From an uncultured Clostridia bacterium (GTDB lineage: Bacteria > Bacillota > Clostridia > Christensenellales > UBA1242): a stretch of DNA of 64,000 nt. The DNA is taken from positions 15,300-79,299 of the forward strand of contig CANREZ010000001.1 of assembly GCA_947629745.1 (NCBI GenBank), in the 5' to 3' direction. Made by a program: the position numbers and the translations under genes. This document shows, one piece after another, positions 24,843-62,652 of this stretch; position 1 is the first letter of the stretch, and every line of letters begins with the position of its first letter. The notes under the pieces were generated by a model, which made no database searches, had not been told where the DNA came from, and saw only the letters and a list, made by a program, of their open reading frames with translations.

Positions 24843-24894
24843 TTCAATCCCCTCAGACCGCAGACGCGGCCAGCTCCCCCTACTACGGGGCGCC
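24843..24894 (-). repeat. Solo arm of the GGGGAGCTG/CTGAGGGGATTGAGC repeat family (core only)
   Basis: As written the sequence reads TTCAATCCCCTCAG-ACCGCAGACGCGGC-CAGCTCCCCCTACTACGGGGCGCC. This is the reverse complement of the family core. Confidence 0.85.
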
Positions 24895-24928
24895 TTATAA
24901 TTATAAGGTTAAAAGCAAATTTTAATAC

Positions 24929-24959
24929 AAAAAAGTCTACCAGGACGGTAGACTTTTTT
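24929..24959. terminator. Bidirectional intrinsic terminator between convergent genes
   Basis: A GTCTACC...GGTAGAC stem is flanked by an A-run and a T-run. Confidence 0.7.
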
Positions 24960-25011
24960 ATAATTAATATACATAAGTTATATTGCGCATTACCCTAATA
25001 GGATCGAATTT

Positions 25012-26070
25012 TTAATTCCTCAAACTATCCTCATAGTCGATGCCCATAGCCTTTTTCACACGACGGAGAGTGGATTGTGCACGCACTCTTGCCTTGGCAC
25101 TGCCCTCAAATAATATTTTATACACTTCGTCGGTGTGCTCCTCATAATACTTCCTACGAGTCCTAATTGGCTCCAAGATATCGTTTAGGATATTAGCTAG
25201 TGTTCGCTTTAACATCACGTCGCCTAGACCACCACGTTTGTAATGCGCTTCGAGTTCAGCCACATTGTTGTAACCTGGAGCATATTTTTGGATATCCGCG
25301 TCAGACGCAAATACTCTAAGGTAGGTGAATACCACATTGCCCTCAACTTTCCCCGGATCACTTACTTTGATATGGTCAGGGTCGGTGTACATACTCATCA
25401 CTTTAGCTCGCACTGTATCTGCATCATCGGATAGATAAATGCAGTTGCCGAGTGACTTGCTCATCTTTGCTTTACCGTCTGTGCCAACTAATCTTTGACC
25501 ATCTTTATTCTCTGGCAGGATGGACTTTGGCTCAACAAGAGTTGGTCCATACATAGTATTGAATGTGCGCACAATATCTCGTGTTTGCTCTAGCATTGGC
25601 TCTTGGTCGTTGCCGACAGGCACAATATTCGCATCAAACGCCGTTATATCTGCTGCTTGGCTAATTGGATAGCACATGAATCCAACTGGCAGGCTCTGGC
25701 CATTTGCTTCCTTTTGCTTGATCTCTTCCTTGACAGTAGGATTTCGCACTAACCTAGAGTACGTCACAAGATCCATGTAGTAAAATGTAAGCTCAGTTAA
25801 TTCCGGCACCATGGATTGGATGAAGATTGTCACCTTGTTTGGGTCTATCCCACAGGCTAGGTAATCACAAGCAACTTCGCGGATATTCTCACGGATTTTG
25901 CCGATATTATCTGCATTGTCACCCAATGCTTGCGCATCGGCTATCATGATGTAGTATTCGTCATAGTCACCTTGATTTTGTAGTAACACACGATTCTTTA
26001 GTGAGCCGATATAATGCCCTATGTGCAACTTCCCAGTAGGCCTATCTCCTGTCAAAATAATATTTCCCAT
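25012..26070 (-). CDS. trpS: Tryptophan--tRNA ligase
   Basis: 352 aa. It has the class I HIGH-type motif (GKLHIGHYIGS) and KMSKS. Overall it looks like TrpRS. Confidence 0.9.
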   Translation of the reverse strand: MGNIILTGDRPTGKLHIGHYIGSLKNRVLLQNQGDYDEYYIMIADAQALGDNADNIGKIRENIREVACDYLACGIDPNKVTIFIQSMVPELTELTFYYMDLVTYSRLVRNPTVKEEIKQKEANGQSLPVGFMCYPISQAADITAFDANIVPVGNDQEPMLEQTRDIVRTFNTMYGPTLVEPKSILPENKDGQRLVGTDGKAKMSKSLGNCIYLSDDADTVRAKVMSMYTDPDHIKVSDPGKVEGNVVFTYLRVFASDADIQKYAPGYNNVAELEAHYKRGGLGDVMLKRTLANILNDILEPIRTRRKYYEEHTDEVYKILFEGSAKARVRAQSTLRRVKKAMGIDYEDSLRN

Positions 26071-26091
26071 AGTTTCCTCTTATTTTAGTAC

Positions 26092-26121
26092 ATTATAATC
26101 TTAAAATTATTTCCCTGTCAA
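26092..26121 (-). promoter_or_regulatory. Consensus-like promoter of trpS
   Basis: On the minus strand: TTGACA (26121-26116), an 18-nt spacer, then TATAAT (26097-26092). It lies about 25 nt upstream of the RBS and ATG. Confidence 0.6.
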
Positions 26122-26186
26122 ATTATTTCCACGCCCACACTTATCCATATCCTAATATAGCACAAAATTTATCGTTGTATAGCAAT

Positions 26187-26212
26187 CAAAAAGGCTATGA
26201 GTTACATAGCCT
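26187..26212 (-). terminator. Intrinsic terminator after the CvpA-like gene
   Basis: On the minus strand, an AGGCTATG...CATAGCCT stem is followed by a T-run. Confidence 0.6.
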
Positions 26213-26219
26213 AATAGAT

Positions 26220-26924
26220 TTATTTTATAGTATAAGTGAATGTCTCATCCGATGCTGTAGATGACACAACTATCACATTTTCAGTCTCTTCCATTGGAGC
26301 GCCGTTGGTACTCGACTTCTTATCATCATCTTTGTCGGTAATCTTGTCTGCCCAATCGTGGACCATGTCGGATACGTGTTCGCGGACCCATGGGTCAAGA
26401 TATTTGTAAATAACTTTGGTGACAACAGTGTTATTCCTAATCCATTCGTCCATGACACCTAGATTGAATGTGCCAAGCAGGCTCACGACAGATAGACCAA
26501 TTGCTACGAACAATCCACCTTTAACGAATCCAAATACACCACCAAACACACGGTTTAGAGTGGATAATGTGCTAGAATTTGCTGTGACTGAGCTGAATAA
26601 TTTGCTCACTAGTAGTATCACTATCTTTAGTATAATCCACACAAGTAGCATGGATAGCAAGAACGTGATGCATGATGCGATATTTTCTCTGCTAAATCCA
26701 CCTACGCTCTCACCTAGTCCCCAACTGCCTAACATATTGGAGAACATCTTATTCACGTGGAACCAATTATCTAGGAGTGTTGCAACGTATTTTGCAAGGA
26801 AATATGACACGACGAGGGACACGAGCGAACTAAATATAGATAGCACGCTATCTACGAATCCACGCACTATTCCCACTATCGCAAATATTATTATTAAAAC
26901 TGCAAGTATTATATCACACCACAT
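26220..26924 (-). CDS. cvpA: CvpA-family membrane protein
   Basis: The N-terminus MWCDIILAVLIIIFAIVGIVRGFV and a multi-TM layout are typical of CvpA. The start is set at the internal ATG (Met16 of the ORF-track ORF 26220..26969). Confidence 0.65.
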   Translation of the reverse strand: MWCDIILAVLIIIFAIVGIVRGFVDSVLSIFSSLVSLVVSYFLAKYVATLLDNWFHVNKMFSNMLGSWGLGESVGGFSRENIASCITFLLSMLLVWIILKIVILLVSKLFSSVTANSSTLSTLNRVFGGVFGFVKGGLFVAIGLSVVSLLGTFNLGVMDEWIRNNTVVTKVIYKYLDPWVREHVSDMVHDWADKITDKDDDKKSSTNGAPMEETENVIVVSSTASDETFTYTIK

Positions 26925-27109
26925 AATATTCACCTCACAACTAAAATAGTTTATATCATCATACCACAAAAATTGTCGTTTGTCACTATTTTGTTTTAAC
27001 GAAATTGCACAATTTGCATTTTGTGCATATTACTACATGACATGGATAATAAATAGTTTGATAAATAAAGTAGGAATAATTTCGCAGGTGTTATACTAGA
27101 TATTCCTTC

Positions 27110-27991
27110 TTATCTACTACTTCGCTCAGCCTTTGATGCGATTTGTTTCATATCCTCTATTTTATCCATGAGTTTTGAGATCTTCTTGTCACTATTCTTT
27201 TCTGGATATTCCATAATGTCTTCAAGCAACTTATATTCCTCAAATCTCATCTTGCAGAAATTTTCGATATTCTCTACTATAGTTTTGTCTTCTTCTAATT
27301 CTGCTAAACTATCTTTCTCATCTGCATTTTTTGCCCTAAGTACTAATCCTTTGTACGCAGCTTTTAATAGATTATTTATGAGTTTAAGTTCTTCGAATGA
27401 GTAGTAATTTAGCTTTAGGAAATTACTAGGATACTGTCGGATGAGATCTACTAGTCCTCTCTCGTCCTTATATTTAGTTTCTCCGTCGAATATTTCCTCA
27501 TCAACTATATTACAGAGCGTTACTCTACCATTTACTTTTACTAAGGCATATCCTAGATAAGTGCCATAGTACTGGTCAAATACACACTTTCCTGATACTT
27601 TCCTTGTCCCAAGATTGAATATAGTCCACTTCCCATTAGCCAATTTGACAACTGCACTATCATGTGAAGCGCGGTCACAATCCACGAATCTCTCACTTAG
27701 TAACTCACCATCTATGCTATCAAAATACGTCCAAGTATAATTATTTAACCATACACGACGATATCCATTATAAAGAGCCTCAACCCAGATAAATCTCTCA
27801 TCTAATATATTAGCTGTCTTTGCAACAAAAAATGTCATACTGCCATCTTTTAAAATCACAAGACCATGACCATCACTAATATGTGTACAGAATTTAAAAT
27901 CAAAATTTAACAACTGTCCAGTTTTAGTATCCTTGTATGTCCAATTACCATTTGGATTTATGCATGGCTCATAACTATAATCCAACTTCAT
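27110..27991 (-). CDS. WG-repeat (KWG-like) containing protein
   Basis: Repeated segments with a W/F-T/V-aromatic pattern are seen: NWTYKDTKTGQLL, YTWTYFDSIDGELL and GKWTIFNLGTRKV. Confidence 0.5.
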   Translation of the reverse strand: MKLDYSYEPCINPNGNWTYKDTKTGQLLNFDFKFCTHISDGHGLVILKDGSMTFFVAKTANILDERFIWVEALYNGYRRVWLNNYTWTYFDSIDGELLSERFVDCDRASHDSAVVKLANGKWTIFNLGTRKVSGKCVFDQYYGTYLGYALVKVNGRVTLCNIVDEEIFDGETKYKDERGLVDLIRQYPSNFLKLNYYSFEELKLINNLLKAAYKGLVLRAKNADEKDSLAELEEDKTIVENIENFCKMRFEEYKLLEDIMEYPEKNSDKKISKLMDKIEDMKQIASKAERSSR

Positions 27992-28134
27992 TTCATCCCC
28001 TCACTTATACTTAGATTATATAGCCCAATACTAAGTAAAGTCAATATGCAAAATACAATATTTTAAGACTTAGTAAGTCTACATATTTTAGTAGAAATAT
28101 TTTATCTTTTTGGTCACTGGCAATAATAACTATT

Positions 28135-28671
28135 ATGAAAAAGTGTGTGAAGATTAGTATGAGCACTCTGCCAACTCTCATAGATGGCATATGCGAAGTT
28201 TTTAATAGTTTGTGTGATTTTGTAATTATCCCCATTGGCAATAGTGAGGTATTAGTGGATAGCATTGGGAGGCAAACTATGAGAAAATGCATATCTAGGT
28301 ACAATATGCCCCGCGAGTTATTCCCAATAGATTATGATATAACGCCCGAGAATATAGACGATATTCTAGATATGCTATCCAGAGAGAATATAGGTCACAT
28401 TATCCTAGATAGTGCTATTGGGCAGGAAATGAATATTTGCACGCTATCTACTTGTGGCGCGTATGTGTGCAGTCTAAGTGAACCAAAGCTAATTGGTGAC
28501 GCATCGATCCTAGTATCTACCGTGACCGATAAGGCCAATATGTCAAGCCTAGATATTATCCACGCGTCGGATATCCTATCCTATGCACTTTGGCGGGCAT
28601 ATAAAGAGTGTAAAAGTCATTATTCGCCACATTTTTTGCGGGATTATAGCGTACCATATAGTACGTTGTGA
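28135..28671 (+). CDS. Hypothetical protein
   Basis: 178-aa ORF upstream of ftsH. It has no PRPP-binding motif, so it is not hpt. The family is unknown. Confidence 0.4.
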   Translation: MKKCVKISMSTLPTLIDGICEVFNSLCDFVIIPIGNSEVLVDSIGRQTMRKCISRYNMPRELFPIDYDITPENIDDILDMLSRENIGHIILDSAIGQEMNICTLSTCGAYVCSLSEPKLIGDASILVSTVTDKANMSSLDIIHASDILSYALWRAYKECKSHYSPHFLRDYSVPYSTL

Positions 28672-28816
28672 ATATTTTACTTCGTCTAGATAAAATTTTG
28701 GTGTATAATCCAACATGGAGTTTGAAAAAAGTGTCACTTATGATAATATTATTAGTGTACAAAAGCAAACGAATATGTTAGAATATGGAAACAAATTATT
28801 TTTGGAGGACTAAGTT

Positions 28817-31783: not shown

Positions 31784-31831
31784 TGGGTAGACAGTGATTG
31801 TCTAACGAAATTGAAAACAATACACCTAAAA

Positions 31832-32440: not shown

Positions 32441-32905
32441 ATGGGAAATAGAACTGCCTTTATTGGTCATAGACATATTTTTGATAAAAACATTAGTGAG
32501 AAGTTACGAGATGCAATAATACAAGAAATTAATAATGGATGCAAACATTTTGTAGTAGGCACCCATGGAGATTTTGATCGAGCGGCACTCAATGTTTGTC
32601 GCAAACTTCGAGAGGATTATAAGGACATAAATATAGATGTAGTAATCACAAGTTTATCACAAATAAAATATAATAATAGCGTTGACTATTTGCCTAGTCC
32701 ATATAGTGACACAAATATAATAATGTATGAGATAGAGGAAACTCATTTTAAAAGAAAAATTATTGAAAGTAACAAACAAATGATTGATTCTTGTGATACT
32801 CTAATATGCTTTGTTGATGAGAATTATAAATATTCAAGTGGCGCAAAAAATGTATATCAGTATGCTAAGAAAAAAGGATTACACATTGTAAACCTCCATT
32901 CCTAG
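32441..32905 (+). CDS. SLOG-fold protein (YpsA/DUF1273-like)
   Basis: 154 aa. The TAFIGHR ... FVVGTHGDFDRAALNVCRKL ... pattern resembles DUF1273/SLOG Rossmann-like proteins. It is divergent from the XRE gene. Confidence 0.45.
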   Translation: MGNRTAFIGHRHIFDKNISEKLRDAIIQEINNGCKHFVVGTHGDFDRAALNVCRKLREDYKDINIDVVITSLSQIKYNNSVDYLPSPYSDTNIIMYEIEETHFKRKIIESNKQMIDSCDTLICFVDENYKYSSGAKNVYQYAKKKGLHIVNLHS

Positions 32906-33011
32906 ACACCCACAAGTTTAAGTATCTTCATAAAGCACTCTATTTTAAGTGATTATGATAAGCAAAATTGTTATAAAATCATATCTGATACTCTTATATC
33001 TTATCCTTATA

Positions 33012-33068
33012 GACGCCCACGAGTTCGGGGAGCTGGCAACTTTCGTTGTCTAAGGGAATTGAGCAAAC
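33012..33068 (+). repeat. Degenerate solo arm of the repeat family
   Basis: The sequence reads GACGCCCACGAGTTCGGGGAGCTG-GCAACTTTCGTTGT-CTAAGGGAATTGAGC. Confidence 0.75.
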
Positions 33069-33140
33069 TTTTCACTACCTTTCATTCGTGCATTCTGTCC
33101 TCTTATATTTTTTAATTCTATCAATATTATCTCTTCCTTA

Positions 33141-33210
33141 TTAGGCCGCCCTTAGTAAGGGGGCTGGCGGTGAAACCGCCTGAAGGGATTGAGCGGGCTT
33201 ATGTGCTTAC
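33141..33210 (+). repeat. Solo arm of the repeat family
   Basis: The sequence reads TTAGGCCGCCCTTAGTAAGGGGGCTG-GCGGTGAAACCGC-CTGAAGGGATTGAGCGGGCTTATGTGCTTAC. Confidence 0.85.
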
Positions 33211-33375
33211 ATCATATGCCAACTCTTCACTCAAAAGAAAATTGATTGTAAGGAACGCAGTGACGGAATAACGAGCACAAGTATCCTACATTAGTATAGT
33301 ACGCTTAATGCGAGTGTCACATAATTCGGCGTCCGGCTTTTCGCGCCACGCTATGCGGCGAGATATTATAGACAT

Positions 33376-44816: not shown

Positions 44817-45113
44817 CCGCGAAACCTGGAAGTTAGCTGAGCGCATAAAAAATGCGAAGCCGAGCGTATAAACGAGCGCGTGCCATTTGGGGCCCCCACA
44901 AAAATAGCTCGCGGCCTTTTGTGGAAAAAGCGAAACCCGCTAAATTCTTAATAAATCCTTATTTAAAAACCTACTTCTGGGCCAACTAAAAACTCCAGCA
45001 AAAATAGCGGAGCGGTCTTTTGCTGGAAAAGAGGCGAAGCCGCGCGAAACCTGGAAGTTAGCTGAGCGTATAAAAAATGCGAAGCTAACGCTTAAACGAG
45101 CGCGTGCTTCGCC
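44817..45113. repeat. Duplicated hairpin-rich units between tRNA-Gly and the ABC-F leader
   Basis: A ~68-nt segment (CCGCGAAACCTGGAAGTTAGCTGAGCG.ATAAAAAATGCGAAGC...AAACGAGCGCGTGC) occurs at 44817-44884 and 45040-45113. A ~48-nt hairpin segment (C.CAAAAATAGC..GCGG.CTTTTG.GGAAAA) occurs at 44893-44940 and 44993-45045. Confidence 0.8.
45070..45112 (-). terminator. Terminator-like hairpin directly after tRNA-Gly
   Basis: On the minus strand, a GCGAAGC...GCTTCGC stem of 7 bp is followed by ATTTTTTAT. Confidence 0.5.
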
Positions 45114-45115: not shown

Positions 45116-45189
45116 TGGAGCAGGTAGCGGGAATCGAACCCGCAACCAAAGCTTGGGAAGCTTTTATTTTACCACTAAACTATACCTGC
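45116..45189 (-). tRNA. tRNA-Gly (anticodon CCC), CCA encoded
   Basis: In reverse complement: acceptor stem GCAGGTA/TACCTGC; anticodon arm AAAGC-TTCCCAA-GCTTT; T-arm GCGGGTTCGATTCCCGC; and 3' TCCA. Confidence 0.85.
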
Positions 45190-50535: not shown

Positions 50536-50643
50536 GGGTCAAAACCCTTTCCTGCATAAGCTATGTCCTAAGACTAACTAATCTTGCAGACATATGGGGC
50601 AAAACACTGTCATAGGTTAAAATAAATTATAATGATATAATTA

Positions 50644-51120
50644 TTAGAGGGTATCGAGTTGATAGCAAGAAAGATAAAAGCTTGCTCAATCCCCTCAGAT
50701 TGCATACGCAATCAGCTCCCCCTACTACGGGGCGCCTAAATGAGGTTATAAGCAGATAGGATAAAGATATACAAATATAAATATAAATATAATTTTAACC
50801 GATATATATTTGTCTTTTAATCAGCAGATGATAAAAAATTAGATTTATTATTGTTTCTTTCATTTTTATATTTAATATGACGACCTCATAAAGGCTCCCT
50901 TTAGTAAGGGGAGCTGGCGGAGACTTCCGCCTGAGGGGATTGAGCCGACTTACGTGCTTTCTTAGGTTCGCGCTCATGACCCACTTGTATAATTTCATAT
51001 TTATATAGGTTAAAATTAATTAAAATGAAGATATAGTATTAACTATTAACATAAAAGATAAAAATAAATTATTAACACAAGAAAATTTATTATAATCAAG
51101 GAGAGTGGCGTGCCACAAAA
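50644..51120 (-). repeat. Full-length ~470-nt composite element (copy D, inverted relative to copies F and G)
   Basis: The parts, in window order, are: an arm at 50644-50747 as reverse complement; an AT-rich core; an arm at 50881-50985; a conserved AT-rich module; and ATTATAA plus GTGGCGTGCCAC at 51089-51116. The 52-nt arm core 50685-50736 is the exact reverse complement of 62125-62176. Confidence 0.85.
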
Positions 51121-51151
51121 AGTAAATTAGAAGAGTATTAACTCTTCTTTT

Positions 51152-55294: not shown

Positions 55295-56179
55295 CTATTC
55301 TCTCTCACTCTCAACCTTTCCATCGCGCTGTGCTTCAAGTTTCTCTACTTCAGCTTTTATTTGATCAAAGACTACCTCGAATGCTTCATCTTTAAGTTCA
55401 TTATGTTTTTTATTGTTTTTTATATTTCTAACAACATCTATACCCGAAGATATCAAATACATTACGATTGAAGTTATTGCAACCAAACCAAAAGCTGAAA
55501 TGAAAAAATTTACAGCCTCTCTACCAAGATCTGGCCATAATAGTGACACAACAGTAGGAATAGGAATTAAACCCATCATCCCAAGAGTGAGTGCACGAGT
55601 AGCATTTGAAGGATGTAATATAGACCTATCATGTGAGAATTTATCTAGCACATGCAACGCATTACCATCACTGTGGCGTTGCAGTAAATTCCTAATTGCT
55701 TGGCTTACGATCTCCGGATCATGTAACTCGATGATTTCATCTATTTCTTCATTAGCTTTTTTACTACGTTCTTTACCGATACTTTTCTTGCTAAATGCTG
55801 CGGCAACATTATGATTAATAAGTTTCTTTGTAGATTCATTCAATTTAGCTTGTTCCAATGTAATTGTTAAATTAATAATATCTTCAGTCGAAGGTGGCAT
55901 ACCCCATCTGTCAATGAGCGGGTTGTCATTCATAAATTCTGTCATCCCCTCACTTAATAAAACAACAGCATCCGTTCGTGCTATTTTATCGTAATTTTTA
56001 CTTTTGATTTTACTTTCTACAGTATCAATTGTTTCGGTCCTTCTGCGTTTTTGTGCAAGTAACATTTCATTATACAGTCTCTTTAACTTTATCTCCTTGT
56101 AATTCTCTGCAAGATCACTGTATTTTGATAGCCTCTTTACTGCAATATCTGGTGATACTTTTAGGACATTTTCATCCAT
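55295..56179 (-). CDS. Hypothetical membrane protein (two C-terminal TM helices)
   Basis: The start is set at the ATG at 56179, which lies 7 nt after GGGAGGAAG. The ORF track begins 5 codons earlier, at 56194. Confidence 0.55.
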   Translation of the reverse strand: MDENVLKVSPDIAVKRLSKYSDLAENYKEIKLKRLYNEMLLAQKRRRTETIDTVESKIKSKNYDKIARTDAVVLLSEGMTEFMNDNPLIDRWGMPPSTEDIINLTITLEQAKLNESTKKLINHNVAAAFSKKSIGKERSKKANEEIDEIIELHDPEIVSQAIRNLLQRHSDGNALHVLDKFSHDRSILHPSNATRALTLGMMGLIPIPTVVSLLWPDLGREAVNFFISAFGLVAITSIVMYLISSGIDVVRNIKNNKKHNELKDEAFEVVFDQIKAEVEKLEAQRDGKVESERE

Positions 56180-56237
56180 ATCTCTTCCTCCCATTACTTA
56201 TACTTTTCTTTTAGCGTATCATGCTATACTTACCTAA

Positions 56238-56268
56238 AATATATCACCCCCCCCCCCAGAAAAGTCAA
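56238..56268 (-). promoter_or_regulatory. Promoter with a G11 homopolymer inside the -35/-10 spacer
   Basis: On the minus strand: TTGACT (56268-56263); a 19-nt spacer TTTCT-G11-TGA; then TATATT (56243-56238). The TGA provides an extended -10 TG. Confidence 0.55.
56247..56257. repeat. Homopolymeric C11 (G11 on the minus strand) tract
   Basis: This is a direct count in the sequence. I saw no other long G/C homopolymer in this AT-rich window. Confidence 0.95.
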
Positions 56269-56343
56269 CATAAAAATAAAAAACTTTCAAATTTTGGTAA
56301 ATTTTACTAATTTTATCTAAAATACATATAAAACAACAATTGT

Positions 56344-56532
56344 AGAGTGCAGTACACTACTTTCCCAGTTCTAATCAATTGTATCTTGTGTTGATGCTGT
56401 AATTCTATTTTTATCCTAATTATTTAGTGGGTCATGAGCGCGAACCTAAGTGGGTACGTAAGCCGCCTCAATCCCCTCAGGCGGTGATAAACACCGCCAG
56501 CTCCCCTTACTAAAAGGGAGCCTTATGAGGTT
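56344..56532 (+). repeat. Truncated composite element (copy E): hairpin/TTCTAAT module + AT-rich module + one arm
   Basis: The arm at 56426-56532 reads AGTGGGTCATGAGCGCGAACCTAAG...CTCAATCCCCTCAG-GCGGTGATAAACACCGC-CAGCTCCCCTTACTAAAAGGGAGCC. It ends about 100 nt before the vanW start. Confidence 0.85.
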
Positions 56533-56632
56533 TTATCTTCATTTGAGCACATAAGTGCCACACAATCCTATCTCAATCCTTTACATAAATAGTTCTCATT
56601 TACACATAATAAATGTAATTTTAGAGGGTATT

Positions 56633-58039
56633 ATGGAAAGAGGTAAGAGAAAGTCTATAACAATCTGGATAGTGGCGCTAGTGACGCTACTGCTATTCCT
56701 TGCAATTGGTGGGAATATTATCCTTGATTCCACCGATGTAGAGAGGGATAATTCGGTAAAAATTAACGGCGTGAACGTGAGTGGTGTGGACCGCACGACA
56801 GCTATCGAGACGCTAGCACAGAGATTTAACGAGCAGGCGGAGAACTTAGAAATTGTGTTACATCACGATGATCGCACCTGGCAGATAAAGGGCTCGGATT
56901 ACGAGATAAATTCAGATATCTACACTATCATCGACGAAGCGCAGAGGCGAGAAATTCTAGCCAGTGACTTCGAGGAGTCTAGAGATTTTGTGACAAACGC
57001 CAATGACGGCGACCTCGTAGTGAATTTCGATTACTTATTCGTAGGGCTATCTGACACACTAGATGAGATCATAAGTGACGTCACAGTAGAGCCGGTCAAT
57101 GCCCGTGTGGAGTTTGATACCAATGTCGACTCTGGATACATAATTTTTGATGCGCAAGTCGGCACTACAGTGGACCGCGATGCCCTATATTCTAGCATAA
57201 ATAGCCAGTACCAGTCATCAAATAGGATAGATATTGACTTGCCAATGATGGATCTTCCAGCCCAGATTGACTCCAGCGATATAGCTGGTGCGATGAACAA
57301 AATTGCATCGTTTTCCACATCCGTATCCGACAGCACGGGTAATAGGAAATACAATGTGAATCTCGCGCTATCCAAATTCGACGGAATGGTAGTTTTGCCA
57401 CATGAAAATGTTTCATTCAATAGCGTCACTGGTCCGCATACTAAGGAAAATGGCTACAAAGTGGCCACCATCATCCTGCAAGGAAAATTCACCGAGGGCG
57501 TAGGTGGTGGGATTTGCCAAGCAAGCACCACTCTATACAATGCCCTACTACTTGCCGGTCGCGATGTAACTGATGTGCAGCGCCACACCCTACCCGTACA
57601 TTATGTACCACTAGGTCTTGATGCGATGGTCGCTGAGGGTATTTCTGATATGTGTTTCTACAATAATAGTGATAGCCCGCTAATCATCCACACTTACCAC
57701 GATTCAGACAACGTGTATGTCGACCTATACAGCGCCGACCTTGACGGAGTTTCCTACAAAACTCGCAGTGAAGTGGTCCGCACTATCCCTGCAAATGACA
57801 AGGTGATATTAGATACCAACCAAAATTATTCCTCACACGTCCTCTACAAAGGTGAGCGTTACCGCATAGCTTATGCTAAGGATGGTTATGAAGTGAAAAG
57901 TTATCTCGACCGCTACGAGGGTGATACACTTACCAAGTCCACCCTACTTCGCCATGATACCTACCAACCACAAGATGGTCTAGTCGTAGAAGGCGCACTT
58001 GATATGCCCGAGGACTTCACCACAAACGATGAGCAGTAG
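56633..58039 (+). CDS. VanW-family protein (membrane-anchored)
   Basis: The VanW core GVGGGICQASTTLYNALLLAG ... HYVPLGLDAMV is present, with an N-terminal TM helix. The start is set at the ATG at 56633 (MERGKRKS), which lies behind AGAGGG. Confidence 0.8.
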   Translation: MERGKRKSITIWIVALVTLLLFLAIGGNIILDSTDVERDNSVKINGVNVSGVDRTTAIETLAQRFNEQAENLEIVLHHDDRTWQIKGSDYEINSDIYTIIDEAQRREILASDFEESRDFVTNANDGDLVVNFDYLFVGLSDTLDEIISDVTVEPVNARVEFDTNVDSGYIIFDAQVGTTVDRDALYSSINSQYQSSNRIDIDLPMMDLPAQIDSSDIAGAMNKIASFSTSVSDSTGNRKYNVNLALSKFDGMVVLPHENVSFNSVTGPHTKENGYKVATIILQGKFTEGVGGGICQASTTLYNALLLAGRDVTDVQRHTLPVHYVPLGLDAMVAEGISDMCFYNNSDSPLIIHTYHDSDNVYVDLYSADLDGVSYKTRSEVVRTIPANDKVILDTNQNYSSHVLYKGERYRIAYAKDGYEVKSYLDRYEGDTLTKSTLLRHDTYQPQDGLVVEGALDMPEDFTTNDEQ

Positions 58040-58107
58040 GTGACATGTCACGGTCCTAGACTATAAGAAAACTTTATATATAGTCAGTATACGTGAATTA
58101 AAAGATA

Positions 58108-58580
58108 CCCCCAATCCGGCGTCAGCCACTTTCCTCGTTATAATCAGTAACATCTTGTATTAATAATTTATTTTTATCTTTTATGTTAATATTTGTTATT
58201 CTAATATTTCATCCTTTATTTATTTTATTATTTAGCAGGTCATGAGCGTGAACCTAAGTAAGCCCGTAAGTCGGCTCAATCCCCTCAGTCGGTGATAAAC
58301 ACCGCCAGCTCCCCTTACTAAAAGGTAGCCTTTATGAGGTCGTTATATTAAATATAAAAATGAAATAAACAATAATCAATTTAATTTTTGTATCATTGAC
58401 CTTATAAGAGAATGATAAGAATTTGTTGTAATTATATTTTTTATTAAGTAATTAATTTTTCCCTATTTATTTTAACCTTATTTAGGCGCCCCGTAGTAGG
58501 GGGAGCTGCCACCGATTAGGTGGCTGAGGGGATTGAGCGGGCTCTTCATCCAACTTTGCTACCAACTTCACACCCACTAA
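58108..58580 (+). repeat. Full-length ~470-nt composite element (copy F)
   Basis: The parts are: a hairpin/TTATAAT module at 58108-58147; a conserved AT-rich module; an arm at 58234-58342 as reverse complement; an AT-rich core at 58343-58481; and an arm at 58482-58580. Confidence 0.85.
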
Positions 58581-58660
58581 AAATAATATCAGTATACTAT
58601 ATTATCAACCCACGAATTATTCCATGTCACTTTATACCCTACTCAGAATTTATATATTTA

Positions 58661-58689
58661 TTGACAAAGTAACTTAATATAGATACAAT
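58661..58689 (+). promoter_or_regulatory. Near-consensus promoter abutting the LRR lipoprotein start codon
   Basis: TTGACA, a 17-nt spacer, then TACAAT. The -10 ends 6 nt before the ATG at 58696 and there is no Shine-Dalgarno sequence. Confidence 0.5.
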
Positions 58690-58695
58690 GTAGGT

Positions 58696-60750
58696 ATGAA
58701 GAAGAAATGGTATACATTAATAGTAGCAATGGTGGCATTTTTGCTGCCAATTTTTACTTTGGTTGCATGTGGAGACAAACCTAATACTCCACCAAAAGAC
58801 CCAAGTGGTGACCCACCACCAGTCACGAGCACAAGTTTTCACAACATATATAGTGATAAGAAATCTATATTAGAGCAATTCTATGGCAATGAGACGAACA
58901 CTATACTTGCAGCAAATGCTCTAGGTGAAGATGGTGAGCCAAGTAATGACTCTACAGAGGAGGAAAACACCCCAAGTGAGGAGACATCATCAAATCCTGA
59001 GGAGAATAATCCAAGTGAAGAGAATCCGACTAATCCTGAGGAAAATACTGAGGAGGGTGAGGAGAATCCCGATGGCAATCCTGAGACTGACCCAAACGAG
59101 GGTGACGACGGGAATGACACACTCGATGACCTAGAACAACCTGAGGATGATTACTCCGAACCGGGTATCACTTTCTCATATTACTGCCACGAAGATGCAA
59201 ATGAAGTACTTAGCAAATATCTAATCAATCCTGACAACGTCTACTCCTGCATCACCTACAATGATGAACTAGTGTGTGTGGAATTTTACAATGACATATC
59301 CATGCAGGAATTAGTGGCTCTTAGGAAAAACCTCGAGGAATGTTATCAATTCTACAACGCAAGGAAAGACCATGGTGAAAATTTCGCTAATTACACAGAG
59401 GACTATTTCCGCCCAGGGTTATTCTACTATATTAATCACCTAGCCTTCATCAACGAAGTGCCAATCAGTGCAATACTTGGTGATGAAATAGAAAAAGACG
59501 GCCCATGCTATATCGCTAAGAAATCTCACACCCTTTTGAAATTCGTAGACGATAGATACGTCCCAGAAGATTTTGACTGGACGAATGACGAATTAAGACA
59601 CGAGACATTTGGAGGCTCTTACACCCTCCCTGAGGGAATAGAAACCATTGCCTCACAAGCCCTTGTATGTGGTGACTTTTATTATGAAAAATTGATACTC
59701 CCAAGCACAGTTAGAGTGATTGAAGATCATGCTCTATATGTGCCAGATATAGAGTTAAACGATGGACTGGAATTCATCGGCGACTATGGGATAGAGGGCC
59801 TGTCTCATACACCTCAGATCCCATCCAGTGTCACATATATTGGCGCATACGGAATATTTAATCGCGCTGAATTTTATGGGATAAATCAAGACTCATTCTA
59901 TATCGTGGATAATTGGATCTTATATAGTAAATTTGCATTAACTCCAAAGGCTTTACACATACCAGAAGGAATAGTAGGAATTGCTAAATTAAGTTTATTA
60001 AATTCCCCTACAAAATATTATATCCCAGAGAGCGTAGAATACATTTGTTACAATTTCGCAACTGGCACTGGACACATAGGATTATTCTTCGAAGCAGATA
60101 GCATGAAGGATGGTTGGACTGACGAATTGTTCGTTACTTCTTCCTTTAGAGATAATACGCGTAGATTGCATATATATTATAATTACACTGAGGCCGACGA
60201 AGAAGACTTCGAAAATGCATTAAATCGTGGTGGCAGGACTATTTGTGATGAGATGGATGAATACTACTGTTACGGACCAGAACACAACACTGACACACTA
60301 TATATCGATGCTGATGTAGAATTTATCGCCCAAGGTCTCTATTACACCGAAGTGGAGCAGATAATCGTTGACCCAGACAATCCATATTATTGCAGTGTGG
60401 ATGGCGTGATGTATTCCAAGGATATGAAGACTCTAATCTGCGTGCCATCTGCTCGCAAAAAGCCATACTCTATCCCTGAGACTGTGACAGGAATTTACAA
60501 CTTAGCACTAAATAACTTCTACGTTCATCAGAAATACATCTTCATTCCAAAAGAAGTGGTATCCTTTGGTTGGGGAATATTCTATTTCTGGGATACAACT
60601 TGCACAGTGTATTTTGAGACAAAAACTGTGAGCCCAAGTATATTGTTTAATGATATTGCATGGTCATGCTCCACAAATATGGAATTTGGCGTGACATATG
60701 AGGAATATTTGGAGGCAATCAACACTAAATACAATGCACAAATTGCATAG
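58696..60750 (+). CDS. Surface lipoprotein with an acidic Pro/Glu/Asn linker and BspA-type leucine-rich repeats
   Basis: It has a lipobox (LVACGD). LRR_5-like repeats recur: IPSSVTYIGAYGIF, IPEGIVGIAKLSL, IPESVEYICYNF and IPETVTGIYNLAL. Confidence 0.75.
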   Translation: MKKKWYTLIVAMVAFLLPIFTLVACGDKPNTPPKDPSGDPPPVTSTSFHNIYSDKKSILEQFYGNETNTILAANALGEDGEPSNDSTEEENTPSEETSSNPEENNPSEENPTNPEENTEEGEENPDGNPETDPNEGDDGNDTLDDLEQPEDDYSEPGITFSYYCHEDANEVLSKYLINPDNVYSCITYNDELVCVEFYNDISMQELVALRKNLEECYQFYNARKDHGENFANYTEDYFRPGLFYYINHLAFINEVPISAILGDEIEKDGPCYIAKKSHTLLKFVDDRYVPEDFDWTNDELRHETFGGSYTLPEGIETIASQALVCGDFYYEKLILPSTVRVIEDHALYVPDIELNDGLEFIGDYGIEGLSHTPQIPSSVTYIGAYGIFNRAEFYGINQDSFYIVDNWILYSKFALTPKALHIPEGIVGIAKLSLLNSPTKYYIPESVEYICYNFATGTGHIGLFFEADSMKDGWTDELFVTSSFRDNTRRLHIYYNYTEADEEDFENALNRGGRTICDEMDEYYCYGPEHNTDTLYIDADVEFIAQGLYYTEVEQIIVDPDNPYYCSVDGVMYSKDMKTLICVPSARKKPYSIPETVTGIYNLALNNFYVHQKYIFIPKEVVSFGWGIFYFWDTTCTVYFETKTVSPSILFNDIAWSCSTNMEFGVTYEEYLEAINTKYNAQIA

Positions 60751-60883
60751 ATTAGCTTATAGATTTAGTACAAAACAATCGAGAGTTATATGAGTTTCAG
60801 CGCACAAAATGTGTAAATTGTATTATAGTTTAATGCCTCAATATTTTGTGCAAAAAAACACGTGACTATAATTAAGATAAAAA

Positions 60884-60909
60884 ATGAGTACTTCCTGGTA
60901 CTCATTTTT
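60884..60909 (+). terminator. Intrinsic terminator after the LRR gene
   Basis: An ATGAGTAC...GTACTCAT stem is followed by TTTT. Confidence 0.65.
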
Positions 60910-61072
60910 ATGTAATATTTAGCAAATATTTTGAAACTTTTAATCTTATGTTATATGTAATTATCTACTATATCCTAATACTATTGCTGCCTATATTCTA
61001 ATATGCAAGAAATGAGTAGTGGCAAATTGTATATTAGTCAAATAAGATTTCTTTATCAATTACGTGATAAGA

Positions 61073-61618
61073 CTAATCGCGTGAAGTTTCTTTCTTTTGA
61101 TCAGCGAGATATTCCTCTAGCATAGCTTCCATTGCCTCTTTGAACTTGCCATATGGCTCAATCAAGTGGAGCTCTTGACAAATCATCTCAACAATTAGCT
61201 CTTCCTTGTCAGATGCCTCAGCTGCAATATTTTCTAGCTTTGTCAATCTCCTAGATGCCTTTCGATAACGATTTGCAAGCATGGATAGAATAGCCTTGTT
61301 GCAATGTCCACGTTCCCTTGCGTGCTCTATATATTTATACATATGACTACGAGCAGAAATTAGCGGCCAATATTGCTTGAAGTATTTATCACAAGCCTTC
61401 TCTATCTCCTCTGTATGCTCTAGTGGTGCTAGCCCCAGACCTGCAAAATATCTATTGATTATACCCACTGCCTGATAACCACGCCTTATCGCATTGTACA
61501 TTGATTCATGCAACTCATAGTCTGGCAAATCATCTGTACAAAGCGTAATATCTGACTCGAGTTTTATCTTCTTCTCCTCTTCAATTTCCTTTATGATCTC
61601 TTCACTTTTGTTTCTCAT
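61073..61618 (-). CDS. Hypothetical helical protein
   Basis: Clean 181-aa ORF. I recognise no family. Confidence 0.5.
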   Translation of the reverse strand: MRNKSEEIIKEIEEEKKIKLESDITLCTDDLPDYELHESMYNAIRRGYQAVGIINRYFAGLGLAPLEHTEEIEKACDKYFKQYWPLISARSHMYKYIEHARERGHCNKAILSMLANRYRKASRRLTKLENIAAEASDKEELIVEMICQELHLIEPYGKFKEAMEAMLEEYLADQKKETSRD

Positions 61619-61724
61619 ATTTTCCCCTCATCCTTATTGTATAACAAATAAATTTTTTGTCAAGATGTAATTTTTCGGGATAGGTGTAACTGCTTTTGTA
61701 AACCGAGCAAACATAAAAGTATTA

Positions 61725-62220
61725 AGTGGGTCATGAGCGTGAACCTAAGTAGGTCCGTAAGCCGGCTCAATGTGGCACGCCACTTTCCCAGTTATAATTA
61801 ATATATCTTGTATTAATAATTTATTTTTATCTTTTATGTTAATATTTCTTAATTCTAATATTTCATATTTATATCACTTTTTTAGTGGGTCATAAGCATG
61901 AACCTAAGTAGGTCCGTAAGCCGGCTCAATCCCCTCAGTCGGTGATAAACATCGCCAGCTCCCCCTACTACGGGGCGCCTCTAAGCGGTTGAATATAAAT
62001 AAAAATTAGGTCAAAAGAACTAATCAAAAAATATTGTAATTAGTAATGACTAAAAGAGTTTCAATTTAACTTTTATATATTTTATGTGGATATAACTTTT
62101 ATCTCTAAATAATAACCTCATTTAGGCGCCCCGTAGTAGGGGGAGCTGATTGCGTATGCAATCTGAGGGGATTGAGCGTGCCTTTTTACTATCTTATGTT
62201 CCAACTCCTCTACCCTCTAA
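61725..62220 (+). repeat. Composite element (copy G) preceded by a truncated arm fused to the GTGGCACGCCAC module
   Basis: The parts are: a truncated arm at 61725-61771; GTGGCACGCCAC-TTTCCCAG-TTATAAT at 61772-61798; an AT-rich module; an arm at 61884-61979 as reverse complement; a core; and an arm at 62121-62220. Confidence 0.85.
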
Positions 62221-62265
62221 ATATATGCAATCCTCTTACTTTTTACTATTCACTTCTACCTCATT

Positions 62266-62365
62266 AAAGGCCGCCCTTAGTAAGGGGGGCTGGCAACTTT
62301 CGTTGCCTGAGGGGATTGAGCCGGCTTTTTCTCTCTTGCTACCAACTCATGTACTCTCTATCTAT
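62266..62365 (+). repeat. Solo arm (tandem, same orientation as the 62121 arm)
   Basis: The sequence reads AAAGGCCGCCCTTAGTAAGGGGGGCTG-GCAACTTTCGTTGC-CTGAGGGGATTGAGCCGGC followed by a tail. Confidence 0.85.
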
Positions 62366-62424
62366 ATAGGTTAGCTAAACAAAAATAATAAAAATATAAT
62401 AATTAGTTAAATTAAAATAATCTA

Positions 62425-62505
62425 CCCCAGAAAAGTGGCGTGCCACCTGAGGGGATTGAGCGGGCATACATTCCCATCTTATATTCCAACTATATTCCCA
62501 CCACA
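62425..62505 (+). repeat. Variant arm: the left half is replaced by CCCCAGAAAA-GTGGCGTGCCAC
   Basis: The sequence reads CCCCAGAAAAGTGGCGTGCCAC-CTGAGGGGATTGAGCGGGC followed by a CCAACT-containing tail. Confidence 0.8.
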
Positions 62506-62535
62506 TAGTTACATAAGTACACATAATTTACATTT

Positions 62536-62595
62536 AGGAAAGTGGCGTGCCACATTGAGCGGGCTTTTTTTCCATCTGGCTACTAACTTTATTCC
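62536..62595 (+). repeat. Variant arm: AGGAAA-GTGGCGTGCCAC-ATTGAGCGGGC
   Basis: The same junction (CTCAAT|GTGGCACGCCAC) is seen in reverse complement at 61766-61783. Confidence 0.75.
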
Positions 62596-62652
62596 TTTTA
62601 AAAATAATATCATCACATTATATTATTAACCCAGAAAAGTGACATGCTACAC

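What the first reader, a model, noticed from the sequence alone, without database searches (positions are those of the whole stretch)
24843..62652. Multi-copy ~100-nt structured repeat unit with a conserved core (at least 14 copies in 64 kb)
One unit recurs in both orientations, and only in intergenic DNA. Its form is [TTA]GGCGCC-CCGTAGTAGGGG-GAGCTG-[hairpin]-CTGAGGGGATTGAGCGGGC, followed by a ~40-nt tail containing CCAACT or ending in ACCCACT. Copies lie at 24843, 33012, 33141, 50644, 50881, 56426, 58234, 58482, 61725, 61884, 62121, 62266, 62425 and 62536. Shared stretches run for tens of nucleotides; for example, 50685-50736 is the exact reverse complement of 62125-62176. The unit starts with a hairpin that has a conserved TAGTA loop (CTCCCTTTAGTAAGGGGAG or CGCCCCGTAGTAGGGGGAG). 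I see no transposase, integrase, cas gene or other autonomous partner in the window. The unit matches nothing I recognise: not REP, BOX, ERIC, Correia or attC elements, nor any riboswitch I can recall. It could be a MITE/BOX-like non-autonomous element, or a family of small structured RNAs or insulator elements.
Basis: seen in the sequence. Interest (0 to 1): 0.8.

Follow-up and report, generated by a model that had tools for sequence, protein, structure and literature searches.

The report
Two-hairpin intergenic repeat family in Clostridia
The ~100-base repeat is real and belongs to a widespread, apparently unnamed family of two-hairpin intergenic DNA repeats that also litters phage genomes of related bacteria; it most resembles the selfish REP/BIME- or MITE-type repeats of other bacteria, and its copying mechanism is unknown.

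Summary
The window holds 11 full, 1 partial and 2 fragmentary copies, all intergenic, on both strands, at the reported coordinates. A model built from the copies finds no others.

Each unit has these parts:
- a conserved 5' ACCTCAT motif
- hairpin H1 (GGC[T/G]CCC..GGGGAGC)
- the dinucleotide TG
- hairpin H2, variable in sequence but always self-complementary
- the core CTGAGGGGATTGAGC
- one of two tail types, each ending in a degenerate inverted copy of the core.

Three ~500-nt composites pair a type-A and a type-B unit head to head.

Nothing in Rfam 15 matches, and the window encodes no recognisable transposase or integrase. Syntenic DNA of the nearest relatives (about 55% amino-acid identity) has no copies and much shorter spacers.

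The H1-TG-H2-CTGAGGGG module is not private to this genome. A model built only from window copies finds 143 matches in 495 kb of high-GC phage contigs, mostly between phage structural genes. An Oscillospiraceae MAG carries it as the inverted ends of a ~155-nt element. Related phages differ by presence or absence of units. The stems are almost purely Watson-Crick.

Best reading: a new family of REP/BIME/MITE-like non-autonomous DNA repeats. A structured-RNA role is not excluded. Interest is moderate.

The parts
24795..24904 (-). Solo unit with a variant tail. It lies 108 nt downstream of the class I (Trp/Tyr-type) tRNA synthetase gene 25012-26070 and has the same orientation.
   Evidence: Model R1 hit 24838-24898, 79.2 bits; sequence.
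33002..33110 (+). Diverged unit with core CTAAGGGAATTGAGC. It is the first of a tandem pair downstream of 32441-32905.
   Evidence: R1 hit 33008-33068, 63.8 bits.
33134..33236 (+). Type-B unit, second of the tandem pair.
   Evidence: R1 hit 33140-33198, 65.9 bits.
50643..50746 (-). Type-B unit of composite c50k. Its 74-nt core region is 96% the reverse complement of 62112-62185.
   Evidence: R1 hit 50680-50740, 82 bits; inverted repeat I1.
50747..50882 (.). AT-rich spacer between the two heads of composite c50k. Its A-proximal half is 93% identical to the c58k spacer.
   Evidence: Inverted repeat I3, 50834-50902 with 58321-58389; alignment A1.
50883..50990 (+). Type-A unit of composite c50k, with tail ...TTAGGTTCGCGCTCATGACCCACT.
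   Evidence: R1 hit 50889-50949, 82.9 bits; fold -43.9 kcal/mol, z = -3.7.
51032..51117 (-). Conserved AT-rich block plus palindrome GTGGCACGCCAC (called Z here) at the outer end of composite c50k.
   Evidence: Inverted repeats I2 and I11; A1.
56340..56421 (+). Degenerate Z palindrome and AT-rich block of the partial composite c56k.
   Evidence: Alignment A1; direct repeat D1.
56422..56531 (-). Type-A unit in the divergent spacer between 55295-56194 and the VanW-like gene.
   Evidence: R1 hit 56462-56526, 70.7 bits; fold z = -4.3.
58116..58229 (+). Degenerate Z palindrome and conserved AT-rich block of composite c58k. Positions 58152-58198 are 98% identical to 61805-61851.
   Evidence: Direct repeat D11; A1.
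58230..58339 (-). Type-A unit of composite c58k.
   Evidence: R1 hit 58270-58334, 68 bits.
58340..58474 (.). AT-rich head-to-head spacer of composite c58k.
   Evidence: A1.
58475..58586 (+). Type-B unit of composite c58k, about 110 nt upstream of ORF 58696-60750.
   Evidence: R1 hit 58481-58542, 80.1 bits.
61720..61803 (-). Truncated unit: Z palindrome joined directly to ATTGAGC and a type-A tail. It has no H1 and no CTGAGGGG.
   Evidence: R1 fragment 61761-61787.
61804..61879 (+). Conserved AT-rich block of composite c62k.
   Evidence: D11 and I2.
61880..61989 (-). Type-A unit of composite c62k.
   Evidence: R1 hit 61920-61983, 75.5 bits.
61990..62114 (.). Head-to-head spacer of composite c62k.
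   Evidence: A1.
62115..62222 (+). Type-B unit of composite c62k.
   Evidence: R1 hit 62121-62181, 81 bits.
62259..62362 (+). Type-B unit, in tandem with the previous one. Its H1 carries a compensatory T-A to C-G change.
   Evidence: R1 hit 62265-62325, 81.1 bits.
62420..62500 (+). 5'-truncated unit. The Z palindrome (GTGG-CGTG-CCAC) sits where H2 normally is, followed by CTGAGGGGATTGAGC and a B-type tail.
   Evidence: R1 hit 62402-62465, 28.8 bits.
62524..62600 (+). Fragment: Z palindrome, ATTGAGCGGGC and a B-type tail.
   Evidence: R1 hit 62533-62564, 11 bits.
62601..62652 (+). AT-only hairpin plus a degenerate Z copy (GTGACATGCTAC). This is the end of the array, just before the terminator of 62783-63304.
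   Evidence: Direct repeat D10; sequence.

Best explanation
The units are copies of a non-autonomous, non-coding DNA repeat. They form a Gram-positive, two-hairpin analogue of REP/REPIN/BIME or MITE elements. The functional module is about 50-60 nt: hairpin H1 with a conserved sequence (GGCTCCCC-loop-GGGGAGC), the dinucleotide TG, hairpin H2 in which only self-complementarity is kept, and the core CTGAGGGG. In this low-GC genome the module has gained ATTGAGC and a 35-45-nt tail. The tail ends in a decayed inverted core, which looks like the remnant of an inverted-doublet (REPIN-like) ancestor such as the one still intact in an Oscillospiraceae MAG.

What is shown: copies accumulate in spacers, preferentially next to one another. 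They exchange segments by recombination or gene conversion, which produces mosaic arrays and three A/B composites.

What is inferred: spread needs a factor encoded elsewhere in the genome that recognises H1 and the junction sequences on folded single-stranded or cruciform DNA. The most plausible candidate is an HUH/Y1-type or other structure-specific nuclease or transposase. Unequal recombination and slippage between units would then amplify arrays locally. Any effect on host gene expression, such as an RNA-decay barrier or the supply or occlusion of a Shine-Dalgarno sequence, would be secondary.
For: - Copy number and family: the window has 14 copies, all intergenic, with no other hits. The same module forms the inverted ends of a ~155-nt element at three MAG loci between housekeeping genes. 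It occurs as single or paired copies in high-GC metagenome contigs. It gives 143 hits at E<1e-3 in 495 kb of phage contigs with a model built only from window copies. Those contigs encode portal, terminase, capsid and holin proteins.
- No coding capacity or partner: the only candidate peptide in the AT-rich leader, read by eye from the A1 alignment, is frameshifted between copies, and no transposase is present.
- Insertion-like behaviour: syntenic relatives L009 and L010 have no copies, and a 77-nt spacer stands where the window has 617 nt. The related phage contig L078 lacks a unit that L020 (+67 nt) and L037 (+143 nt) carry at the same site. L017 and L018 differ by +85 and +82 nt unit indels.
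- No fixed orientation to genes: in the window 8 copies are on the + strand and 6 on the - strand. In phage contigs about 64 are antisense and 27 sense.
- Structure is conserved but looks DNA-like: 92.7% of cells are paired across 125 distinct copies, and 10 of 14 pairs show double changes, with 0 of 500 shuffles reaching the score. Only 12 G.T and 5 A.C pairs occur in about 1600 cells.
- Mosaicism: different segments of the three composites have different nearest relatives, at 96%, 93% and 98% identity.
Against: - No mobilising enzyme has been identified in the window, the MAG loci or among 140 ORFs flanking phage units.
- No clear target-site duplication is seen. The MAG copies show none. 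The one 10-nt direct repeat (L017) is itself part of a unit core, so it fits slippage or recombination equally well.
- The polarity of the presence/absence differences (insertion or deletion) is not established.
- The orientation bias in phages (about 2-3:1 antisense to genes) and the frequent position right before a Shine-Dalgarno sequence (38 of 99 units against 13% in controls) could mean selection at the RNA level.
- In the window copies, G.T pairs outnumber A.C pairs on the 'forward' strand by 10 to 3, and forward folds are usually more stable. This hints at one functional strand.
Confidence: 0.6

Rival explanations
1. The units act as RNA. On this reading they are intercistronic or UTR structured elements that stabilise or process polycistronic mRNA or tune translation. 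The C-rich strand (CCCCUCAG) can pair with a Shine-Dalgarno-like GAGGGG, and the element carries its own SD-like sequence. Alternatively they are a multi-copy sRNA family.
For: - Compensatory changes occur in both hairpins.
- In phage contigs the units mostly lie antisense to their 'forward' strand in spacers between co-directional genes. By my own inspection of the listing, the arrangement often reads stop codon, CCCCTCAG, H2', H1', SD, then ATG.
- An SD-plus-start pattern on the reverse complement is found upstream of H1 in 38% of units, against 13% in controls.
- In L020 and L037 the unit sits between the old SD and the ATG and supplies a new SD.
- Intact type-A window units fold with z = -3.7 and -4.3.
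Against: - Orientation is not fixed: about 30% of phage units are sense, and the window has 8 on + and 6 on -.
- Most window copies are not adjacent to a start codon.
- Promoter-like and terminator-like motifs do not flank the units consistently.
- The long-range closing helix P0 is no better than a composition-matched control: 5.36 against 4.84 +/- 0.29, and 5.26 against 5.15.
- Wobble pairs are almost absent, which is atypical of RNA-selected helices.
- Arrays of about 18 tandem units are hard to explain as regulators.
- No Rfam family matches.
Confidence: 0.22
2. The units are domesticated protein-binding DNA sites. Candidates are sites for a nucleoid-associated protein, a topoisomerase or an insulator or terminator factor, maintained by the host rather than by a mobile-element life cycle.
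For: - The H1 and junction sequences are strongly conserved across genomes of 40-70% GC.
- Location is strictly intergenic.
- Known REP/BIME elements bind IHF, gyrase and Pol I (established knowledge; BIMEs as protein-binding sites are noted in the abstract of PMC2817692, listed).
- The Z palindrome GTGGC-N2-GCCAC looks like a dimer-binding site.
Against: - Copies are absent from the nearest relatives.
- Distribution is very uneven: none in the first 24 kb and 10 copies within 12 kb.
- Presence in many unrelated phages and indel polymorphism fit a selfish element better.
- No binding protein is known.
Confidence: 0.1
3. The units are CRISPR-repeat mimics: solitary repeat units or RNA anti-CRISPR-like decoys, or decayed mini-arrays.
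For: From memory only: H1 followed by ...GGATTGA resembles type I-C repeats (GCTCCCC-loop-GGGGAGC-GTGGATTGAAAT). The family is frequent in phage genomes.
Against: - The ATTGA motif is present only in the window, MAG and a few metagenome copies. Most of the family has GGGGTTG, GGGGTTA or GGGGTCG instead.
- An extra hairpin H2 and CTGAG interrupt the putative repeat.
- The window has no cas genes and no regular repeat-spacer array.
- The resemblance was never tested against real repeats.
Confidence: 0.03
4. The copies are an assembly artefact, such as collapsed or chimeric joins.
For: In the MAG, the copies lie near contig ends.
Against: The window copies differ from one another. They are embedded in unique flanks inside conserved gene order. 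The same contig is on record at NCBI at 222,597 bp. The family recurs in independent assemblies from many projects.
Confidence: 0.01

Closest known systems
REP / REPIN elements with RAYT transposases (Enterobacteria, Pseudomonas)
   Same: Both are short, GC-rich, hairpin-forming extragenic repeats at high copy number and on both strands. Inverted doublets occur (the MAG element, and decayed inverted cores in the window tails). No transposase lies next to most copies, and copies cluster.
   Different: REPs are single 20-40-nt palindromes preceded by a conserved GT(A/G)G (PMC2817692). Here there are two adjacent hairpins with conserved junctions GAGCTG and CTGAGGGG, and no conserved GTAG. The hosts are Clostridia and their phages, not Proteobacteria. 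No RAYT has been found.
BIMEs (bacterial interspersed mosaic elements, E. coli)
   Same: Both are mosaic arrays built from two unit types (A and B, comparable to Y and Z), often in opposite orientation and separated by conserved linkers. The window has three head-to-head A/B composites with a conserved ~135-nt spacer.
   Different: The alternation is not regular: four same-orientation units lie at 62115-62600. The units are about 105 nt rather than about 35 nt. The linker sequences are unrelated.
BOX elements of Streptococcus pneumoniae (boxA-boxB-boxC)
   Same: Both occur in Firmicutes. Both are modular, with modules that can be missing or swapped (Z replaces H1/H2; CTGAGGGG is deleted in two copies). 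Both are intergenic, predicted to fold, and have no known transposase.
   Different: There is no sequence similarity that I can see or that any search returned. BOX folds by pairing boxA with boxC, whereas here there are two local hairpins. This comparison rests on my own knowledge of BOX and was not tested against BOX sequences.
MITEs (for example Correia or RUP)
   Same: Both are small, non-coding, multi-copy elements. The MAG version has ~60-nt terminal inverted repeats. Presence/absence polymorphism is seen between related genomes.
   Different: No target-site duplication has been demonstrated, and no parent IS with matching ends is known. The window units lack good terminal inverted repeats.

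Membership tests
REP/REPIN-RAYT | A single imperfect palindrome of 20-40 nt with a conserved 5' GT(A/G)G | tested here: not met
   The units have two hairpins. GTAG occurs only inside the H1 loop of one subtype (CCGTAGTAGG) and is absent from the other subtypes and from the high-GC family. REP consensus sequences are taken from PMC2817692.
REP/REPIN-RAYT | A cognate RAYT (Y1/HUH) gene in the genome, typically flanked by REPs | tested here: inconclusive
   No Y1_Tnp or other transposase appears among about 45 window ORFs, the MAG flanks, or the top families of 140 phage-flank ORFs. Only 64 kb of the genome was available, from a contig of at least 222 kb.
REP/REPIN-RAYT | Inverted doublets (REPINs) as the replicating unit | tested here: inconclusive
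   The MAG element is a heads-out doublet. L073 pairs type-1 units with inverted type-2 units. Window units keep only a decayed inverted core, and the window pairs are head to head.
BIME | Two or more unit types in regularly alternating orientation with specific linkers | tested here: inconclusive
   Three A(-)/B(+) pairs share a conserved linker, but tandem same-strand runs occur at 33002-33236 and 62115-62600.
MITE | Terminal inverted repeats | tested here: inconclusive
   Present in the MAG element. In the window units the only inverted pair is the core against a degenerate inverted core at the tail end.
MITE | Target-site duplication | tested here: not met
   None at three MAG copies. None at the L078/L020/L037 empty and filled sites. 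The 10-nt direct repeat in L017 is part of a unit core.
MITE | An autonomous IS with matching ends | not testable with these tools
Any Rfam 15 RNA family (including ROOL, GOLLD, HEARO/omega RNAs and ribozymes) | A covariance-model match at or near the gathering score | tested here: not met
   The window at gathering threshold returns only 3 tRNAs. At E<=10 over 50-64 kb nothing real appears; the MIR7533 hits are an artefact of the inverted pairs. Twelve phage loci at gathering threshold, and L073 at E<=1, return nothing relevant.
CRISPR array or solitary repeat | Regular repeat-spacer periodicity, cas genes, and repeat identity to a host array | tested here: not met
   Spacings are irregular, there are no cas domains, and the resemblance to the I-C repeat is from memory only.
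BOX (S. pneumoniae) | Sequence similarity to the boxA, boxB and boxC modules | not tested
The comparison is architectural only.

The most novel reading that the evidence does not exclude
The two-hairpin module is the recognition site of a dedicated, still unidentified protein shared by Clostridia and their phages. One form would be a Gram-positive and phage counterpart of the REPIN-RAYT partnership. Another would be a structure-guided element that homes to the position just after a Shine-Dalgarno sequence and carries a replacement SD, so it can colonise intercistronic gaps of phage late operons without killing expression. Either would be a new mobile-element strategy and would explain the arrays between phage structural genes.
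Probability: 0.2. Interest if true: 0.7.

Novelty: new member of a known kind. Interest (0 to 1): 0.45.

Why it matters
Interspersed hairpin repeats (REP, BIME, BOX, MITE) are well studied in Proteobacteria and streptococci, but hardly at all in Clostridia.

This family has several unusual properties. Its sequence is conserved across genomes of about 40-70% GC. It is abundant inside phage genomes, with roughly one unit per 3.5 kb in the contigs retrieved by matching the module itself. It forms tandem arrays of up to about 18 units. It often sits exactly between a stop codon and the next Shine-Dalgarno sequence.

Three consequences follow:
- It breaks metagenomic assemblies. The MAG copies sit at contig ends.
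- It may seed spurious ORF calls (inferred; not tested here).
- It may shape phage operon expression or module exchange.

Identifying its mobilising or binding factor would open a Gram-positive counterpart to REPIN-RAYT biology. For this window alone, the result is a solid annotation: repeat family, copy table and mosaic structure.

Tried and rejected
- Rfam: four searches found no family. The MIR7533, MIR1858 and whalefall-1 hits are sub-threshold and come from inverted or tandem units.
- Small toxin-like ORF in the AT-rich leader: read by eye from the A1 alignment, it is a 20-aa hydrophobic peptide in c58k but is frameshifted in c62k and c50k, so I rejected it.
- Sigma-70 promoters and intrinsic terminators: motifs near the Z palindrome (GTGGCA-N16-TATAAT) and in the spacers are inconsistent between copies, and promoter-like sites are only modestly above shuffles, 74 against 52.
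- Sigma-54 reading of TGGCAC-N5-TTTC: one base off the consensus and degenerate in two copies, so probably coincidence.
- Closing helix P0 (CCTCA with TGAGG): attractive by eye, with apparent covariation in 33050 and 33180, but no better than composition-matched controls.
- Hammerhead-like reading of CUGAGGG and CUGAUGAGG: position 9 is wrong and no GAAA is present; Rfam is silent.
- The 684-aa ORF flanked by composites as a possible transposase: it has no Pfam or NCBIfam match, and its sequence looked to me like a repeat-rich lipoprotein.
- Partner search in the MAG flanks and in 140 phage-flank ORFs: only housekeeping and phage structural genes turned up.
- blastn against plasmids and phages: no match.
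- Literature: searches by sequence string and by topic found no description.
- Source genome: exact-protein look-ups found no contig.

Full report
OBSERVATION

The repeat exists as described. The 15-nt core CTGAGGGGATTGAGC occurs 12 times with at most 2 mismatches. The scan at up to 3 mismatches found 13 matches against 1.1 expected in shuffles, and no shuffle reached that number. The 24-nt H1 module occurs 5 times exactly, against 0 expected.

I built a covariance model (R1) from the 11 full copies and ran it without filters on both strands of the whole window. It recovers those 11 at 64-83 bits, one 5'-truncated copy (62402-62465), two fragments (62533-62564 and 61761-61787), and nothing else above noise. 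The quoted exact 52-nt reverse-complement pair is correct.

All copies lie between ORFs. None lies in the first 24.8 kb, and ten lie within 50.6-62.7 kb. The units are 51-66% GC inside spacers of a 33-42% GC region. Copies are diverged and sit in unique flanks, so they are not assembly artefacts.

ANATOMY IN THE WINDOW

I call 'forward' the strand that reads GGCGCC...GAGCTG...CTGAGGGG. On that strand a unit has these parts:
- a conserved (A)ACCT[C/T]AT motif, then 2-3 A/T bases
- hairpin H1, either GGCTCCCTTT-AGT-AAGGGGAGC or the GGCGCCCCGTAGTAGGGGGAGC variant
- TG
- hairpin H2, with a 5-6-bp stem whose sequence differs almost completely between copies but stays complementary
- the core CTGAGGGGATTGAGC
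- one of two tails.

Tail A (five copies) is CGGCTTACG...TTAGGTTCGCGCTCATGACCCACT. Tail B is pyrimidine-rich and has ...CCAACT...ACCC[T/A]CT. RNAalifold pairs GAGGGG/GAGC of the core with the end of either tail. By inspection, GCTCATGACCCACT and ACCCTCT are decayed inverted copies of the core (GCTCAATCCCCTCAG). Each ~105-nt unit is therefore a full half-element plus the stump of an inverted partner.

On the 11 copies, 84.7% of the H1/H2 cells are paired, 7 pairs show changes on both sides, and the covariation score is 0.43 against 0.19 in shuffles (0 of 500 reach it).

The elements are mosaic. A 12-nt palindrome GTGGCGTGCCAC ('Z', four good copies) can take the place of H2 (62430-62461). It can also abut ATTGAGC directly, with CTGAGGGG deleted (61720-61803 and 62524-62600).

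Three ~500-nt composites (50560-51151 reversed, 58040-58695 and 61690-62300) share one layout:
- the Z palindrome, followed by TTTCC, a TTATAAT motif and a ~100-nt AT-rich block
- a type-A unit in reverse orientation
- a ~135-nt AT-rich spacer
- a type-B unit in forward orientation.

A fourth copy (56195-56554) stops after unit A. Different segments of the composites have different nearest relatives, at 96%, 93% and 98% identity. This indicates recombination or gene conversion among copies.

SURROUNDINGS

The window is ordinary Firmicutes-type chromosome. The 1204-aa and 1231-aa ORFs at 5782-13104 and the 692-aa ORF at 923-3001 have the sizes and order expected of rpoC, rpoB and fusA (assigned from size and position, not tested). 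Pfam identifies a RecD2-type helicase, FtsH, phosphoketolase, a class I (Trp/Tyr-type) tRNA synthetase, QueH, a Y-family polymerase and a VanW-like protein. No transposase, integrase, reverse transcriptase or Cas domain was found among about 45 ORFs, and NCBIfam adds nothing.

Units show no fixed relation to genes. They occur downstream in sense (24.8 kb, 33 kb), between convergent genes (50.7 kb), between divergent genes (56.4 kb), upstream of genes (58.5 kb) and antisense to both neighbours (62 kb). Eight are on the + strand and six on the - strand. Promoter-like and terminator-like motifs do not flank them consistently. A possible short hydrophobic ORF in the AT-rich block, read by eye from the A1 alignment, is frameshifted between copies.

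RELATIVES OF THE HOST

The window's VanW-like protein is on record (NCBI, contig of 222,597 bp). The next relatives are only 55-56% identical. Their contigs (L009 of 21 kb, L010 of 9 kb) keep the gene order: a 131-aa gene, GT2-TPR, IMS, QueH, a 125-aa gene, VanW. They have no unit by regex or by model R1. The spacer that is 617 nt in the window is 77 nt in L009. The units are therefore lineage-specific additions.

THE WIDER FAMILY

Scanning the species-representative genomes for GAGCTG-N10-20-CTGAGGGGATTGAGC found one 59%-GC Oscillospiraceae MAG with three true loci. There the module forms both ends, heads outward, of a ~155-nt element between housekeeping genes, near contig ends, with no target-site duplication. 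JGI metagenomes gave five more high-GC contigs.

Dropping the ATTGAGC requirement (AAGGGGAGCTG-N10-20-CTGAGGGG) returned 66 stretches of IMG/VR viral contigs, with 47-71% GC and a median of 60%. A regex finds 136 units in them. The window-derived model R1 finds 143 hits at E<1e-3 in 495 kb.

Across 125 distinct sequences, 92.7% of stem cells pair and 10 of 14 pairs carry double changes, totalling 200 cells; 0 of 500 shuffles reach the score. The slid-register controls fall to 40-58% paired. This alignment is fitted to the model, which inflates pairing somewhat.

The contigs are genuine phage: they encode P22-like portal, terminase, capsid, scaffold, holin and endolysin proteins. One of them, L073, has units in every gap of its morphogenesis module and a ~1-kb tandem array with a 49-nt period upstream of terminase. 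That array mixes the standard unit with an inverted variant.

No Rfam family matches these units either. Searches of plasmid and phage records found nothing, and I found no paper describing them.

BEHAVIOUR

Related phage contigs differ by units.
- L078 has an empty site that reads GAGGAG-N8-ATG on the gene strand. L020 carries a 67-nt insert there and L037 a 143-nt insert. The insert lies between the old Shine-Dalgarno sequence and the ATG, pairs with the old SD through CCCCTC, and brings a new SD (AAAGGA).
- L017 has 85 nt more than L018 at one site, flanked by a 10-nt direct repeat that is itself part of a unit core.
- At a second site L017 has 82 nt more than L018, which looks like unit-to-unit recombination.

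With my crude gene calls, units in phage contigs are antisense to flanking co-directional genes about 64 times and sense about 27 times. A reverse-complement SD-plus-start pattern lies within 45 nt upstream of H1 in 38 of 99 units, against 13% of random 45-mers.

DNA OR RNA?

The helices are kept almost entirely by Watson-Crick pairs. In about 1600 stem cells of the family there are 12 G.T and 5 A.C pairs. RNA-selected helices normally tolerate many G.U pairs on one strand only. A near-absence on both strands is what palindromic DNA gives, whether through hairpins on either strand, cruciforms or intra-palindrome correction.

The window copies show a weak forward-strand bias: 10 G.T against 3 A.C, and forward folds are usually more stable. 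Many of these copies are near-duplicates, so the counts are not independent.

A three-way-junction closing helix (CCTCA with TGAGG) looked attractive, but it is no better than composition-matched controls.

INTERPRETATION

The best-supported reading (about 0.6) is a non-autonomous DNA repeat of the REP/REPIN/BIME/MITE kind. Its functional module is H1-TG-H2-CTGAGGGG. It has expanded locally in this low-GC lineage, with an added ATTGAGC and a tail left over from an inverted partner.

These points are shown: copy number, structure conservation, mosaic recombination, absence from relatives, indel polymorphism in phages and lack of coding capacity. These points are inferred: mobilisation in trans by an unidentified structure-specific enzyme, and local array growth by unequal recombination.

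The main rival (about 0.2) is an RNA-level role as an intercistronic or UTR element, suggested by the orientation bias and SD adjacency in phages. A host-domesticated protein-binding role (about 0.1) overlaps with both. CRISPR-repeat mimicry is only a resemblance recalled from memory, and it applies only to the ATTGAG subfamily.

COMPARISON AND MEMBERSHIP

The family works most like REP/BIME, but it fails the defining REP features. It lacks the single palindrome with a 5' GT(A/G)G (PMC2817692), and no RAYT was found. It also fails the MITE criterion of a target-site duplication. I therefore file it as a new family within the known kind 'interspersed hairpin repeats', not as a member of REP, BOX, Correia or any Rfam family.

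VERDICT

Novelty is a new member of a known kind. Interest is 0.45. The cross-GC conservation, the abundance in phage genomes and the SD-adjacent insertion are worth a follow-up, but no new mechanism has been demonstrated.

Noticed in passing
window 44818-45110: A second, unrelated repeat lies just downstream (on the minus strand) of tRNA-Gly(ccc) at 45116-45189. The 43-nt copies at 44818-44860 and 45043-45085 are 98% identical and belong to a ~225-nt duplicated block (CGCGAAACCTGGAAGTTAGCTGAGCG...).
   Followed up: no
window 61772-61788, 51100-51116, 62430-62446, 62537-62553: The Z palindrome with its flank reads TGGCAC-N5-TTTC on one strand. That is one base off the sigma-54 -24/-12 consensus as I remember it. 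Two other copies are degenerate, so this is probably coincidence.
   Followed up: partly
L073 7100-8010 (IMGVR_UViG_3300032167_004945): A phage morphogenesis module (terminase, scaffold, P22-like coat) carries a ~1-kb tandem array of about 18 two-hairpin units with a 49-nt period upstream of terminase. It also has units in every other intergenic gap, including an inverted variant type (CCCCTCCGTC-hairpin-CCACCTCCCC-loop-GGGGAGGT).
   Followed up: partly
L078 12440-12530 vs L020 1290-1450 and L037 290-520: An empty site and two filled sites in related phages. The unit lies between the original Shine-Dalgarno sequence and the start codon, can pair with the old SD, and brings a replacement SD.
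   Followed up: partly
window 63568-63697: Weak sub-threshold Rfam hits (BTnc231 at 27 bits, Leu_leader at 21 bits) overlap a 14-bp terminator-like hairpin on the minus strand at 63663-63697.
   Followed up: no
window 56555-58039 (VanW-like) and whole window: The host lineage is very sparsely sampled. Apart from the window's own protein, the best homologue among 5.8 billion proteins is 55-56% identical, and exact-protein look-ups returned no contig for the source genome.
   Followed up: partly
window 58696-60750: This 684-aa ORF is flanked on both sides by repeat composites. Its sequence has a lipoprotein-like N-terminus (by eye) and an acidic Pro/Glu/Asn-rich low-complexity linker. It has no Pfam or NCBIfam match.
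   Followed up: partly
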